Source: a virus
Taxonomy: Duplodnaviria; Caudoviricetes
Length of the DNA: 64,000 nucleotides
IMG/VR virus record: IMGVR_UViG_3300028048_000068
Coordinates: 32,001-96,000 of that record
Reading direction: 5' to 3' (one strand)
In this document: in pieces, positions 2,763-33,800 of the stretch
How the letters are laid out: every line of letters begins with the position of its first letter
Position numbering within the stretch: the stretch's first letter is position 1
Program-made: the position numbers and the translations under genes
Notes under the pieces: model-generated
Told to the model about the DNA's origin: nothing
Databases searched by the model: none
What the model saw: the letters and a program-made list of their open reading frames with translations, nothing else

Positions 2763-2914
2763 TGTATTACTCCTTTCCATTACTCCTTTCTTTTGATACC
2801 TAATTATAACAATAATTTTAAATTCTGTCAACACTTTTTTATGTACTAAAATCCGTACAATCGCGCCCGGTCGTGCCCGGGCCCGCGCGAACATACGTTC
2901 GATTTATGAGTACG

Positions 2915-2937
2915 AAAAAACGGACTTGCGTCCGTTT
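2915..2937 (-). terminator. Terminator after the tRNA-like RNA and its trailer
   Basis: AAACGGAC-GCAA-GTCCGTTTTTT on the minus strand. Confidence 0.75.
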
Positions 2938-2973
2938 CTTCTGAAAGGAGGTGAAAACAATGACTCATAAAAG

Positions 2974-3053
2974 TGGTGGAGTAGACGAAGATTCGAACTT
3001 CGTTCGCTATGCCCTTGGGAGGGATATTCATAGTGGACACCTTGCCCTACCCC
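2974..3053 (-). ncRNA. 80-nt tRNA-like RNA with alanine identity (tmRNA tRNA-like-domain architecture, no canonical anticodon arm)
   Basis: GGGGTAG/CTACTCC acceptor stem with G3:U70, discriminator A plus encoded CCA; T-arm CGAAG-TTCGAAT-CTTCG; 13-nt D-loop-like segment GGCAAGGTGTCCA. Confidence 0.7.
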
Positions 3054-3095
3054 ATAAGGTTGTGGTTTTAAGGGATAACCACAAACCCTTTTGTA

Positions 3096-3425
3096 TTAAC
3101 CGAGAAAGTAACCTTTCTGCGTTCCTTTTCCCTTAACCTTTACATCGACAACCTTTACATCCTCGACTTTCTTGGCGAGTGCAGAAGCCTTGTTTACGGA
3201 AATTCCGCAGAGTTCCGCAATCTTGCTTGCGAGCATTGGCTCATCTGTAAGCACTCTCGAAATTGCTTCGATTATTGGTGCGTTAGCAATCTGTGTCTTG
3301 CTTGGACGCTCTGCCCTCTTGGCGTTGCGCACGTCGAGTTTCTCGATTGCTTCTGTGGCGAAAGTAACCATATCCTCTGTGATAGTTCCGTTGATAACTG
3401 CGTTGTAGAATTCTCTCTGTGTCAT
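3096..3425 (-). CDS. Putative winged-helix protein; paralog of 8717..9064
   Basis: MTQREFYNAVINGTITED...ASKIAELCGISVNKASALA...VKVKGKGTQKGYF; RBS AAAGGA. Confidence 0.8.
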   Translation of the reverse strand: MTQREFYNAVINGTITEDMVTFATEAIEKLDVRNAKRAERPSKTQIANAPIIEAISRVLTDEPMLASKIAELCGISVNKASALAKKVEDVKVVDVKVKGKGTQKGYFLG

Positions 3426-3468: not shown

Positions 3469-3728
3469 ATTATAACTGATTTGTTTGGGTTTGTCAAGAC
3501 TTTTTTAGAACTTTTTTAATTTTTTATTCTGTTCTTTTCTATTCCTCTTGACAATTATATTGTAGCACACTTTTTAGTTTGTGTCAATATCTTTTTTATG
3601 TTTTTTTATGTTTTTCTCGCTTATACTCGCGAGGTCAAGGGAAAGGTGTTTCTGTGTCCACGCGTTGTTTCTGTTTCTTCCTTTCCCTCTGACAATTATA
3701 GTATAGCAAAAATTTAATAATCTGTCAA
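3469..3728 (-). promoter_or_regulatory. Three tandem sigmaA promoters
   Basis: TTGACA-17-TATACT (3728-3700), TTGACA-17-TACAAT (3587-3559), TTGACA-17-TATAAT (3497-3469). Confidence 0.8.
3616..3693 (-). ncRNA. Candidate small structured RNA or leader with A-rich loop
   Basis: Starts right after a promoter; 13-14 bp stem closing a 33-nt loop with three GAAAC motifs; second hairpin; no credible ORF. Confidence 0.45.
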
Positions 3729-30800: not shown

Positions 30801-33800
30801 GGGAACAAATACACCTACCGAAGACCCTAAAGTTGCTGCAGGTGAAAAATCAAGACAACAATGGTCTGATTTGTGGACTTCAGTTAAACAAGCATTTACT
30901 GAAGGTACCCCTACTGAAGACCCTAAAGTAGAAGCAGCAGAAAAAGCTCGTACAACTTGGAAAAATATTTGGGATGGAGTTAAACAAGCTTTTAATACTC
31001 CAACTTCTACCCCTGAACCTAAACAACCGCAACCACAAAACAATACTGGACAATCAACAGTACAAAATCAAGAAGCTACAGTAACTATACATACTGAAGA
31101 CTCTGAATTAGATGCTACCAAAACTAAAATTGATACTGTAATAGAAGCTGCTTCTAAACCACAAACAGTTACAATTACTGCAAATACAGGAAAATCAACA
31201 GATACAGCATTAACAAGTATAAATAAAATCAAAGACGCTACAAAAGGCAATAATACTATAAATGTTAGCGCCAAGGTTAAAGGTAAAGATGATGTTAATA
31301 ATCTAGGGTCAATAATTACTAATGTAAAACCTAAAACCATCAGTGTTACAGCCAATGTTAGTGGTGCAAGTAAAGTTACTTCTTTAAAAAACGAAATTAG
31401 TAATTTAAAAGACAAAGACGTTTATATTACTACTCATAAGAAAACTGTAAATGATAAACCTAGTGGGGCCAAAGGTATTAACAATCATATTGCTCCACGT
31501 CGAAGTCTATCACTTGGCTCTTTAGCCTCTGGTACTCGTTATGGCAGATTAGGTCCTAAAGGACGTGGTGGTTTAACCCTTACTGGTGAAGAAGGGTTTG
31601 AGATAGCTTGGTTACCAAGTGAAAGTCGTTCAATGATACTCGGCGCTGACGGACCACAGATGATTAGTTTACCATCTGACGCTGTAGTTTATACACATGA
31701 GCAATCTGAAGATATTTTACGGAAACGACAAGAAATTGAAGCGGGTTCTCATGCAGGTAGACATAAAAAAGGTGGCGGTTCAAGTTCGGGTTCAGGCTCT
31801 AAATCTTCCAAAAAAGGAGGAAAGAGTAAAAAGGGTAAATCTAAAAAGAAAAAAGATAAAAAAGATAAAACTCCTACAATTAATAATTGGTCAATTGAAG
31901 AAGCTGTTCAATACAATATTGACCAGTCCCTTGCATCAATAACTGAAGAAATTTCTCTCCGTACCAAAGACATCGAAAAGAATCTCGAAAAAATTGGTAC
32001 GACCTATAATGACATAGTTGGCACAACTCAAGCCCAAATCGCTGCATTAGACCAAGTTAAACAAAAAAACAAAGAACTTCTTGAGTCAAACCAGCGTCAA
32101 CTTGCAGACTATAGAGCACAACAGCAATATGTAAGTTGGACCGATGGTAATGGAGAATCTCAACGTACATTAATTAATATTGGTCAATTCTTAGCTAGTG
32201 ATGGAAAAATCGACTATAATGCAATTCAAAGTTTTGCTGGTGGTAATCGAGCTTTACAAGAGGCCCTCTTTAAAGAGGTAAGCTCTGGTAAGGATATGGC
32301 TGATGGAATGCGCAATGCGCTTAAAGCAATTGCTGATGCTGATCAACAGATTGCAGACCTTGGTAAGAAAATTTCTGAAGCATTCTATCAATGGGAGAAT
32401 GAACTTACTGAAGTATATAGTTTAACAAAACGTATTAATAATGAAGTTTCATTTACAAATAGATTTACTTCTCAAGTAGAACTTGAACTTGCTAAACTTG
32501 GCGCAGGCTTTACTGACACCGCGAAAGCTATTGCAAATACACGAAATGTATTAATACGTAATAATGCTACTATTCAAGCACAAATTAAAAATCAGCAACA
32601 AATGGTTGCTGCTCGTCAGCGAGAACTCGAGGCAGCATTAAGTTATGAGGACGAAGTCAATAAATATAAAAAATTTGAAGCCAAAACCGATTGGGATTCT
32701 GAAGCAACCAAAACTGCGACACTTGAGTGGGCTAAAAATTTAGAAACAGGCGCAAGGCTTGGCTATAAATATGTTGCAGACAGTATTTTTAAAGATATTG
32801 ATGGGTCTATTCAATATCAAATTGATTGGGAAAAATTTAATGCAGATAATGAAGCTAATCCATATTCAAAAGCTGATTATGAAGCAATTAAGAAATATCT
32901 TGATGACCTTGATAGCGCGGCGACAGAGTTTAATAATTCAATTAAAGACCAAACAGACTTCATCAAGCAAACCTATGATGCTCTTAAGGAGTATCAAGAT
33001 TATGTTGCTGATATGGAAGATACTCTTATTAAGGGTGTTGAAGAAGAAATTGAAGAAGCTAAGGATAATGCAAAACAAATCAGTGATTCAATCACTAGCG
33101 CATTAAAAGACTTACTTGATGAGGTTAAGCGTAAACTTGATGAGCGTAGAAAACAAGAAGATAATGCGAAGACCGAAAGAGATATATCGCAAAAACAGCA
33201 ACGTCTTGCTATGCTGCGCGCGGATACCGCGGGCGGACATCAAGTTGAAATTGCACAACTTGAAAAAGAAATTGCTGATTCACAACAATCATATCAAAGA
33301 ACTTTAGAAGATCAATTACTTGATAGATTACAACAACAAGCTGATGAGGCTTCTGAACAAAGAGAGCGCCAAATCGCATTGATGGAAGCTGGTAATCAAA
33401 TTGATGCATCGACCAATAAAGAATTGGTTGACATGTGGCTGAAAGACCCTGAAAAGTATAAGGAAGAAATTAAAGCGGCATGGTTAGAAGCTCAAGGATA
33501 TGATGAGAAAGGTGAAGCTGGACAATATGTACTTGAAAGTCAATTTGAATCTGATTTCGCTCAATTAGTTACTGCCGTTGAGGAGTCAAATTTCAAAGAT
33601 AGTTTTAATGCATTAACAGCTGATACGAATTCACTCGCGGCATTACTTAATGAATTAACCAATGGACAACTTGGCAGAGAAGACGAACTTGCTCATAACA
33701 CTAATGCATTATTAGATGTTACAGATAGAAATACAACTTCTATTTTAACCGAAATGCAGAAGCAAAATTCTGCAGCAATGTTAAAAGCTAAAGGAGCAGA

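What the first reader, a model, noticed from the sequence alone, without database searches (positions are those of the whole stretch)
2974..3053. Mini-tmRNA: an 80-nt RNA with only the tRNA-like domain and alanine identity
Seen (minus strand): GGGGTAG GGCAAGGTGTCCA CTATG AATAT CCCT CCCA AGGG CATAG CGA ACGAAG TTCGAAT CTTCGT CTACTCC ACCA. It has a G3:U70 pair, discriminator A, encoded CCA and a canonical T-loop. A 13-nt segment replaces the D-arm, with GG and TCnA placed as in the E. coli tmRNA D-loop (ATTCTGGATTCGA). A bulged short hairpin stands where the anticodon arm or tmRNA mRNA domain would be. The acceptor plus T stack is 13 bp rather than 12. Established: G3:U70 specifies AlaRS, and a stemless D-loop marks the SmpB-binding domain of tmRNA. 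Inference: a tag-less tmRNA mimic that rescues ribosomes without proteolysis tagging, sequesters SmpB/EF-Tu/AlaRS, or decoys tRNA-targeting defence nucleases.
Basis: partly seen in the sequence, partly recalled or inferred. Interest (0 to 1): 0.85.

Follow-up and report, generated by a model that had tools for sequence, protein, structure and literature searches.

The report
Remodelled non-decoding tRNA-like phage RNA
A large cattle-rumen phage carries a real tRNA-shaped RNA that cannot read codons; it is one of many interchangeable tRNA or tRNA-like inserts in a conserved cassette behind an early gene, and nothing ties it to tmRNA.

Summary
The 80-nt sequence is exactly as described (window 3053..2974, minus strand). 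It has a perfect 7-8 bp acceptor stem with G3:U70, discriminator A73, an encoded CCA and a canonical T arm. It has no usable anticodon loop.

The window lies in a complete 136.6-kb phage with 25 ordinary tRNA genes elsewhere. The RNA follows a 109-aa early gene.

About 40 related rumen-phage loci carry the same cassette. The slot behind the pseudoknot holds true tRNA-Lys or tRNA-Asn, or a dozen different remodelled tRNA-likes, or nothing. The remodelled copies share only the acceptor stem, T arm and CCA. G3:U70 occurs in this copy alone.

No tmRNA or tRNA model matches, and the D-loop likeness to tmRNA is at chance level. I read it as a tRNA-derived, RNase P-type processing and scaffold module. 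A decoy role cannot be excluded. Function is untested.

This scan has noted similar tRNA-like-plus-anti-RBS-trailer arrangements in other phage genomes.

The parts
3469..3497 (-). Promoter of the cassette (TTGACA, 17 nt, TATAAT; 12 of 12)
   Evidence: the sequence is shown
3096..3425 (-). 109-aa early gene. It starts at the ATG after GAAAGGAAAA and stops at TAA 3098..3096. It has a weak helix-turn-helix match. The ORF list gives a longer 133-aa reading from an upstream TTG.
   Evidence: 31 homologous loci
3060..3090 (-). H-type pseudoknot. S1 is (AA)GGG/CCC(UU). S2 is UUGUGGUU/AACCACAA and lies in and after the S1 loop. It begins 5 nt after the stop codon.
   Evidence: Seen. S2 covaries U:A<->C:G between the window and L007/L011. 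S1 covaries in the short form. The spacing to the stop codon is constant. It is the only copy in the genome.
3054..3059 (-). 5' leader CCUUAU. It ends in the same UAU as the leaders of many of the phage's tRNA genes.
2974..3053 (-). The 80-nt tRNA-like RNA. It has an acceptor stem with G3:U70, a mini D hairpin or loop, a 9-bp bulged hairpin in place of the anticodon arm, a T arm, A73 and CCA.
2941..2973 (-). 3' trailer. CAU lies at 2962..2960 and UCACCUCCUUUC at 2954..2943. Together they are the complement of a strong ribosome-binding site plus AUG.
2915..2937 (-). Intrinsic terminator: stem AAACGGAC/GUCCGUUU, loop GCAA, then a U run.
   Evidence: Read directly. The simple scanner did not list it, probably because part of the U run lies within the stem.

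Best explanation
The element is a tRNA-derived, non-decoding RNA gene. It keeps only the parts that tRNA-maturation enzymes read: the acceptor stem, the T arm and elbow, RCCA and a UAU leader.

It is transcribed from the sigma-A-type promoter at 3497 as the tail of an early mRNA. The order is gene, pseudoknot, tRNA-like, anti-RBS trailer, terminator.

Inferred mechanism:
1. RNase P cuts before G3053.
2. The upstream mRNA then ends in a compact pseudoknot with a tail of 6 nt or less. Such an end resists 3' exonucleases.
3. This frees a stable tRNA-shaped RNA. It may stay fused to the trailer or be trimmed back to CCA.
4. The trailer's anti-Shine-Dalgarno/anti-AUG tract is thereby released as a small RNA.

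In this reading the tRNA half is a processing and stability scaffold. The remodelled core is a lineage-specific payload.

This copy has the complete alanine identity set, so AlaRS would probably charge it once the CCA end is exposed. That is not a family trait.

Shown: the anatomy, the conserved cassette, the interchangeable cargo, and the lack of any tmRNA signal. Inferred: the RNase P cut, the stabilising role of the pseudoknot, and alanylation.
For: - Anatomy and non-random occurrence.
- All 25 phage tRNA genes encode CCA, and many have UAU-type leaders like this element.
- The same cassette occurs in 31 + 30 related loci.
- Behind the pseudoknot sit true tRNA-Lys(UUU), Lys(CUU) and Asn(GUU), or about a dozen aberrant tRNA-likes.
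- What the aberrant copies share is 6-7 of 7 acceptor pairs, 4-5 of 5 T-stem pairs, a T loop (canonical in most) and an encoded CCA. Cores range from 43 to 79 nt and the 'anticodons' called for them are inconsistent: Pro versus Ser for near-identical copies.
- The pseudoknot starts 5-7 nt after the stop codon of genes with different C-termini.
- Pseudoknot stem 1 covaries: UGG/CCA, GCG/CGC, GGG/CCC, with U:A, C:G and U.G at the closing pair.
- U.G pairs and the G3:U70 pair fit only the minus-strand RNA.
- The acceptor GGGGUA/UACUCC with its G.U equals positions 2-7 of the slot tRNA-Asn of L097. The whole-sequence alignment gives z = 4.0.
Against: - No read-level RNA data. The only RNA run holding the locus is kept as contigs, which cannot show ends or strand.
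- Some relatives (L015, L018, L104) have the gene with no tRNA-like, so processing is not essential.
- Within subfamilies the whole tRNA-like, core included, is 94-98% identical where flanks are 67-82% identical. Near-identical phages (L087, L108) carry unrelated cargo. This looks more like selection on the cargo itself than on a mere cutting signal.
- The 13-bp stack is atypical for an RNase P/EF-Tu substrate.
Confidence: 0.45

Rival explanations
1. The tRNA-shaped RNA is itself the effector. It would be an uncleavable tRNA mimic made early in infection that soaks up a host tRNA-binding factor. The most attractive candidate is a tRNA-targeting defence nuclease. AlaRS or another maturation enzyme is also possible.
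For: - The slot otherwise holds tRNA-Lys and tRNA-Asn. Phage tRNAs are documented countermeasures to tRNA-cleaving defences (PMC10264068, PMC11464382, PMC11555353), and tRNA-Lys(UUU) is a recurrent target (PMC13056530).
- A strong early promoter drives it.
- Cargo swaps between near-identical phages, and whole-RNA conservation inside subfamilies exceeds that of the flanks. This is an arms-race-like pattern.
- Cores are expanded rather than eroded.
Against: - There is no anticodon loop to mimic a nuclease target.
- No core motif is shared between subfamilies.
- I know of no precedent for non-decoding decoy tRNAs in phages.
- No defence partner is identifiable, because the host is unknown (searches found no bacterial match).
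Confidence: 0.28
2. It is a relic: a former slot tRNA (Asn-like) that lost decoding and is drifting, with no function of its own.
For: - Slot homologues include intact tRNAs.
- The acceptor resembles that of the slot tRNA-Asn.
- Deletion variants exist: a short pseudoknot-CCCA form, or no insert at all. One relative in run X4 replaces 2927..3101 with 94 other letters.
- G3:U70 is unique to this copy.
Against: - Every helix in this copy is perfectly paired, including a new 9-bp hairpin.
- About ten independent remodelled lineages all keep an intact top half and CCA.
- Subfamily conservation exceeds that of the flanks.
- The RNA is identical in near-identical strains found in several runs and studies.
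- Phage genomes usually shed useless DNA quickly (general knowledge).
Confidence: 0.12
3. One reading: a mini-tmRNA. An alanylated tRNA-like domain enters stalled ribosomes with SmpB and releases them without adding a tag.
For: - Complete alanine acceptor identity, CCA and T loop.
- A 13-nt region between the acceptor stem and the next helix, as in ssrA.
- Tag-less tmRNAs exist in jakobid mitochondria (from my own knowledge; represented by Rfam's mt-tmRNA family).
Against: - No hit to any tmRNA, mt-tmRNA or tRNA model at E <= 10, and no ARAGORN tmRNA call.
- The D-loop match is 5 of 13, which is chance level.
- The stack is 13 bp.
- A 9-bp hairpin stands where SmpB would replace the anticodon arm.
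- The phage has no SmpB.
- None of the slot homologues shares G3:U70 or a stemless D-loop.
Confidence: 0.04
4. The functional product is on the plus strand: a 58-61-aa protein (2951/2960..3136) with a strong RBS, and the RNA fold is incidental.
For: GAAAGGAGGUG, then 6 nt, then ATG on the plus strand. An ATG at RBS spacing recurs in about 11 of 16 related loci.
Against: - In relatives the frame stops after 0-4 codons (M*, MS*, MNI*, MKTI*, MTNL*, MQIV*) or has no ATG, so no protein is conserved.
- The only plus-strand promoter-like site nearby scores 9 of 12.
- The tRNA features, the G.U pairs and the U.G pairs in the pseudoknot only make sense on the minus strand.
Confidence: 0.03

Closest known systems
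tRNA-like processing signals: MALAT1/mascRNA and MEN-beta, mitochondrial tRNA punctuation, plant mitochondrial t-elements
   Same: A non-decoding tRNA-shaped element embedded behind an mRNA. It retains the acceptor and T-arm features read by RNase P. A stable structure lies just upstream and would form the new mRNA 3' end.
   Different: This is a bacteriophage element with an encoded CCA. It is preceded by an H-type pseudoknot at a fixed distance from the stop codon and followed by an anti-RBS trailer. The cargo is interchangeable with true tRNAs. Cleavage is untested.
Phage T4 species 1 and species 2 RNAs (rnaC, rnaD) and other unexplained phage tRNA-like RNAs (from my own knowledge)
   Same: Stable tRNA-like, non-decoding RNAs encoded by large phages that also carry tRNA genes. 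Their function is unknown.
   Different: The T4 RNAs sit inside the tRNA cluster. This one lies about 18 kb from the cluster, on the other strand, in the 3' UTR of an early gene. No sequence relation was tested.
tmRNA tRNA-like domain, including tag-less mitochondrial tmRNA
   Same: G3:U70, A73, CCA, a T arm and no anticodon.
   Different: No model match. The stack is 13 bp, not 12. There is a hairpin where SmpB would sit. The defining features are absent in the slot homologues. The phage has no SmpB.
Plant-virus 3' tRNA-like structures with an upstream pseudoknot domain (TYMV, TMV)
   Same: The order is stop codon, pseudoknot(s), aminoacylatable tRNA-like structure ending in CCA. The short form in relatives (pseudoknot ending in CCCA) has the same topology as the TYMV acceptor pseudoknot.
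   Different: Here the tRNA-like is not at the 3' end of the primary transcript; a trailer and terminator follow. The acceptor stem is an ordinary helix. It is a DNA phage.
Phage-encoded tRNAs that counter tRNA-cleaving defences (PMC10264068, PMC11464382, PMC11555353)
   Same: In relatives the same early slot holds tRNA-Lys and tRNA-Asn, and the cargo turns over rapidly.
   Different: Those are decoding tRNAs that replace cleaved host tRNAs. This RNA cannot decode.
Alanine minihelix substrates of AlaRS (Francklyn and Schimmel; from my own knowledge)
   Same: An acceptor/T-arm helix with G3:U70 and A73 is enough for alanylation.
   Different: This is a natural phage RNA, charging is untested, and the alanine identity is not conserved in the family.

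Membership tests
tmRNA (tRNA-like domain) | Alanine acceptor identity: G3:U70, discriminator A, 3' CCA | tested here: met
   Read directly. The first four pairs are the same as in the phage tRNA-Ala.
tmRNA (tRNA-like domain) | Recognised by tmRNA covariance models or by ARAGORN's tmRNA search | tested here: not met
   No tmRNA, alpha/beta/cyano tmRNA or mt-tmRNA hit at gathering score or at E <= 10. ARAGORN reports 0 tmRNA genes.
tmRNA (tRNA-like domain) | Conserved stemless D-loop (GGAUUCGA-type) that binds SmpB | tested here: inconclusive
   5 of 13 positions match E. coli ssrA, chance P about 0.2. A 4-bp mini-hairpin is predicted instead (pair probability 0.75). SmpB binding cannot be tested here.
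tmRNA (tRNA-like domain) | 12-bp acceptor plus T stack | tested here: not met
   13 bp, as 7+6 or 8+5.
tmRNA (tRNA-like domain) | Defining features conserved in homologues | tested here: not met
   Slot homologues have G3:C70 or U3:A70. Many have normal D arms and some are plain tRNAs.
Canonical decoding tRNA | Cloverleaf with a stable anticodon stem and a 7-nt loop | tested here: not met
   Only ARAGORN's mitochondrial mode draws one, as Gly-CCC with loop CUCCCAA. That fold is 10-12 kcal/mol worse than the extended hairpin, and its pairs have probability 0.003 or less.
Canonical decoding tRNA | Match to the Rfam tRNA model or a default ARAGORN call | tested here: not met
   Searches gave nothing. 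Slot relatives score 45.9 bits (L011) and 26.9 bits (L007).
tRNA-like processing element (RNase P substrate) | Acceptor helix stacked on a T arm with a T loop, a 3' RCCA, and a single-stranded 5' leader | tested here: met
   The leader and CCA follow the pattern of the phage's 25 tRNA genes.
tRNA-like processing element (RNase P substrate) | Actual cleavage at the 5' end in vivo or in vitro | not testable with these tools
   The runs found are contigs only and give no RNA ends.
Plant-virus-type 3' tRNA-like structure | The tRNA-like CCA is the 3' terminus of the RNA | tested here: not met
   A 33-nt trailer and a terminator follow the CCA.

The most novel reading that the evidence does not exclude
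Rumen phages keep an early-expressed 'tRNA slot' whose cargo is swapped between true tRNA-Lys/Asn and a diverse set of uncleavable, non-decoding tRNA mimics. The mimics, this alanine-identity copy included, would be RNA decoys that neutralise host tRNA-targeting immune nucleases or other tRNA-binding factors. That would be a new class of RNA anti-defence element.
Probability: 0.25. Interest if true: 0.8.

Novelty: new variant of a known kind. Interest (0 to 1): 0.5.

Why it matters
Non-decoding tRNA-like RNAs in large phages, such as T4 species 1 and 2, have stayed unexplained for decades. This locus offers a tractable comparative system. It is a conserved cassette (stop codon, pseudoknot, tRNA or tRNA-like, anti-RBS trailer, terminator) whose middle part is exchanged between otherwise near-identical phages.

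If the tRNA half is a processing scaffold, this is a bacterial-virus counterpart of mascRNA-type punctuation, and a natural version of the engineered 'tRNA scaffold'. If the cargo is an effector, it would extend the tRNA arms race between phages and host defences to RNA decoys.

The pseudoknot's fixed position 5-7 nt after stop codons, and the trailer that mirrors a ribosome-binding site, are both undescribed as far as I could find.

Tried and rejected
- Public RNA evidence: one metatranscriptome run holds the locus, but only as assembled contigs. A single 4.4-kb contig spans the whole stretch, so no ends, strand or expression can be read.
- Covariation within this RNA's own lineage: exact and structured patterns found no second copy in viral contigs. 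Near-identical strains show no substitutions in 2974..3053.
- attP or host-tRNA fragment: the 3' half has no exact match in the genomes of 185,579 bacterial and archaeal species, and neither does the pseudoknot.
- Known ribozymes or riboswitches for the pseudoknot: no Rfam hit at E <= 1 on four related loci.
- HDV-like (theta) ribozyme behind the tRNA: considered from memory. The trailer is too short and lacks the nested helices.
- Stop-codon readthrough or frameshifting driven by the pseudoknot: the spacing fits, but the spacer length varies by 1-2 nt. The downstream frame therefore differs between loci, and there is no shared slippery site.
- A specific target of the anti-RBS trailer in the phage: only generic early-gene start regions match, at 18-19 of 26 positions.
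- The trailer pairing with the start region of its own upstream gene: no matched covariation across loci.
- tRNA-Sec (8/5 stack): it lacks the 6-bp D stem, the long variable arm and the UCA anticodon.
- Identity of the upstream gene: only a weak helix-turn-helix hit in Pfam and nothing in PHROGs.
- Earlier notes of this scan: they gave parallel cases but no data on this RNA.

Full report
WHAT IS THERE

The window is bases 32001-96000 of a complete 136,627-bp IMG/VR phage record. Near-identical DNA occurs in mainly bovine-gut sequencing runs from 11 studies. It shows:
- an acceptor stem GGGGUAG/CUACUCC with G3:U70, then A73 and CCA;
- a T loop UUCGAAU closed by five pairs, plus one extra base (U69) that can extend either the T stem or the acceptor stem, giving 13 stacked pairs;
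- a central hairpin of 5 + 4 Watson-Crick pairs with an AAUAU bulge and a CCCA loop.

ViennaRNA recovers this fold. The central-hairpin pairs have probability 0.85-0.99. A 4-bp mini-hairpin is predicted in the 'D' segment.

Default ARAGORN and Rfam find nothing here, at gathering scores or at E <= 10. That covers the tRNA, tmRNA and mt-tmRNA models. ARAGORN's mitochondrial mode draws the same 80 nt as a Gly(CCC) cloverleaf with loop CUCCCAA. That fold is 10-12 kcal/mol worse than the extended hairpin and has essentially zero ensemble weight. The RNA therefore cannot be expected to decode.

The element is not a chance match. The combined motif occurs 17 times in the genome (the tRNA genes plus this element) and never in 20 shuffles.

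CONTEXT IN THE PHAGE

The phage has 25 ordinary tRNA genes on the plus strand at 9.4-16.8 kb. All of them encode CCA, and many have a UAU-type 5' leader. The candidate lies about 18 kb away on the other strand and has the same CCA and leader pattern.

It belongs to one early cassette, in this order:
- a perfect TTGACA-17-TATAAT promoter at 3497..3469;
- a 109-aa gene with a weak helix-turn-helix match (3425..3096);
- 5 nt of spacer;
- an H-type pseudoknot (3090..3060);
- the leader CCUUAU;
- the RNA;
- a 33-nt trailer;
- a terminator (2937..2915).

The trailer contains UCACCUCCUUUC, and a CAU lies eight bases upstream of that tract. Its complement is a textbook ribosome-binding site plus ATG. 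The nine-base core CCUCCUUUC occurs only twice in the genome. The second copy lies 25 nt after the last, odd, tRNA of the tRNA array.

RELATIVES

The upstream protein retrieved 31 viral loci. A pseudoknot pattern retrieved 30 metagenome loci. All appear to be rumen-type samples. None of the patterns has a match in the genomes of 185,579 bacterial and archaeal species, so this is not a host tRNA fragment or an attachment site.

The slot behind the stop codon holds one of three things:
1. A 35-nt short pseudoknot ending in CCCA.
2. The window-type pseudoknot followed, within 0-7 nt, by canonical tRNA-Lys(UUU), Lys(CUU), Asn(GUU) or Asn+Lys.
3. The window-type pseudoknot followed by remodelled tRNA-likes of about a dozen kinds.

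A few relatives have no insert at all (L015, L018, L104).

The remodelled copies share good acceptor and T stems, a T loop that is canonical in most of them, and an encoded CCA. Their cores differ completely (43-79 nt). ARAGORN's anticodon calls for near-identical copies disagree (Pro versus Ser). G.U pairs wander: 2:71 in L113, 4:69 in L089, and 3:70 only in the window copy. Alanine identity is therefore a property of this copy, not of the family.

This copy's acceptor, GGGGUA/UACUCC with its G.U, equals positions 2-7 of the slot tRNA-Asn of L097. The whole-sequence alignment gives z = 4.0. That suggests descent from a slot tRNA.

THE PSEUDOKNOT

Stem 1 covaries in loci that were found by protein homology, so the sample is unbiased with respect to the RNA. 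The variants are UGG/CCA, GCG/CGC and GGG/CCC. The closing pair is U:A, C:G or U.G.

Stem 2 changes U:A to C:G between the window and L007/L011. The U.G pairs fit only the minus-strand RNA.

The pseudoknot starts 5-7 nt after the stop codon behind genes with at least four different C-termini. A terminating ribosome would therefore just reach it.

SELECTION PATTERN

Within subfamilies the whole tRNA-like is 94-98% identical, while the flanks are 67-82% identical (L088/L115, L091/L102). The T stem of L115 carries a compensated G:C to A:U change.

Conversely, L087 and L108 have nearly identical flanks but unrelated cargo. One relative in a bovine run replaces 2927..3101 with 94 other letters. The cargo is a swappable module.

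INTERPRETATION

The tmRNA reading fails every testable family-level criterion:
- no model match;
- a D-loop likeness of 5 of 13 positions against the confirmed E. coli ssrA sequence, which is chance level;
- a 13-bp stack;
- no SmpB in the phage;
- slot homologues that lack the defining features.

What all cargoes keep is what RNase P and the other tRNA-end enzymes read. My best explanation (about 45%) is a tRNA-derived processing and scaffold module. RNase P cuts before G3053. The mRNA is left capped by the pseudoknot. The tRNA-shaped RNA and the anti-RBS trailer are released.

The main rival (about 28%) is that the tRNA mimic is itself an effector, for example a decoy for a tRNA-targeting defence. 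Support comes from the cargo swapping, the conservation of cores within subfamilies, and the fact that the slot otherwise holds tRNA-Lys and tRNA-Asn. Phage tRNAs are known countermeasures to tRNA-cleaving defences (PMC10264068, PMC11464382, PMC11555353, PMC13056530).

A functionless relic (about 12%), a mini-tmRNA (about 4%) and a plus-strand protein (about 3%) are less likely. The plus-strand frame stops after 0-4 codons in relatives.

This copy would probably be alanylated if its CCA end is exposed. It has the same G1-G4 pairs and A73 as the phage's tRNA-Ala, and an acceptor helix with G3:U70 is known to be enough for AlaRS (from my own knowledge). Charging is untested.

LIMITS

There are no read-level RNA data. 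This particular variant has no diverged homologue, so its own helices cannot be tested by covariation. The host is unknown. All functional steps are inferred.

Earlier first-reader and follow-up notes of this scan describe similar tRNA-like RNAs with anti-Shine-Dalgarno trailers in other phage genomes. I treated them as leads only.

Noticed in passing
window 2941-2973 (minus strand); related loci L002-L019 and L087-L116: The trailer between the CCA and the terminator is the complement of a strong RBS plus start codon (CAU, 8 nt, then CCUCCUUUC). It is conserved behind both true tRNAs and tRNA-likes. On the other strand it gives a strong RBS, an ATG, 0-4 codons and a stop in most loci (M*, MS*, MNI*, MKTI*...). 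Within the phage it matches only generic early-gene start regions.
   Followed up: partly
genome 16726-16900, plus strand (outside the window, which starts at 32001): The last tRNA of the array, called Thr(UGU), has a non-canonical T arm. Its CCA is followed 25 nt later by the only other CCUCCUUUC in the genome. The complement of that copy again reads RBS, ATG, 3 codons, stop.
   Followed up: partly
L002-L019, about 5-7 nt after the stop of the upstream-gene homologue (e.g. L004:3352-3394): Short form of the cassette: a 35-nt H-type pseudoknot (stem 1 covarying, stem 2 GUGGG/CCCAC) ending in C-CCA-CUU. It has the same topology as the acceptor pseudoknot of plant-virus tRNA-like structures. Its stem 2 equals the commonest T stem of the tRNA-like cargoes. 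It may be a minimal tRNA-end mimic or a deletion product.
   Followed up: partly
L033, L040, L042, L047, L048 (contigs of sample 3300045988): A second pseudoknot class ends in the same AGUCCCACCCCACUUAUA tract but has stem 2 GGGACU/AGUCCC. It sits between unrelated genes, directly before a CCCC...GGGG hairpin, an RBS and an ATG. No tRNA is attached.
   Followed up: no
window 3016-3027 (minus strand, inside the RNA): The apical part of the central hairpin reads CCCUCCCA. It therefore contains CCUCC, the anti-Shine-Dalgarno core, half in the stem and half in the loop. Other cargoes do not share this motif, so it may be coincidence.
   Followed up: partly
window 2840-2900 and the same position in L002-L010: After the terminator come a CGAAC-N4-GUUCG palindrome and a GC-rich GCCCGG...CCGGGC hairpin, upstream of the next perfect promoter (2831..2803). 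This module is conserved across relatives and repeated before other early promoters.
   Followed up: no
L090/L092/L094/L099 and L098/L101: Behind the pseudoknot these loci carry a CCA-less aberrant tRNA-like (core of 54-56 nt) followed 3-8 nt later by a canonical tRNA-Lys(UUU). So a remodelled copy and a true tRNA can sit in tandem.
   Followed up: no
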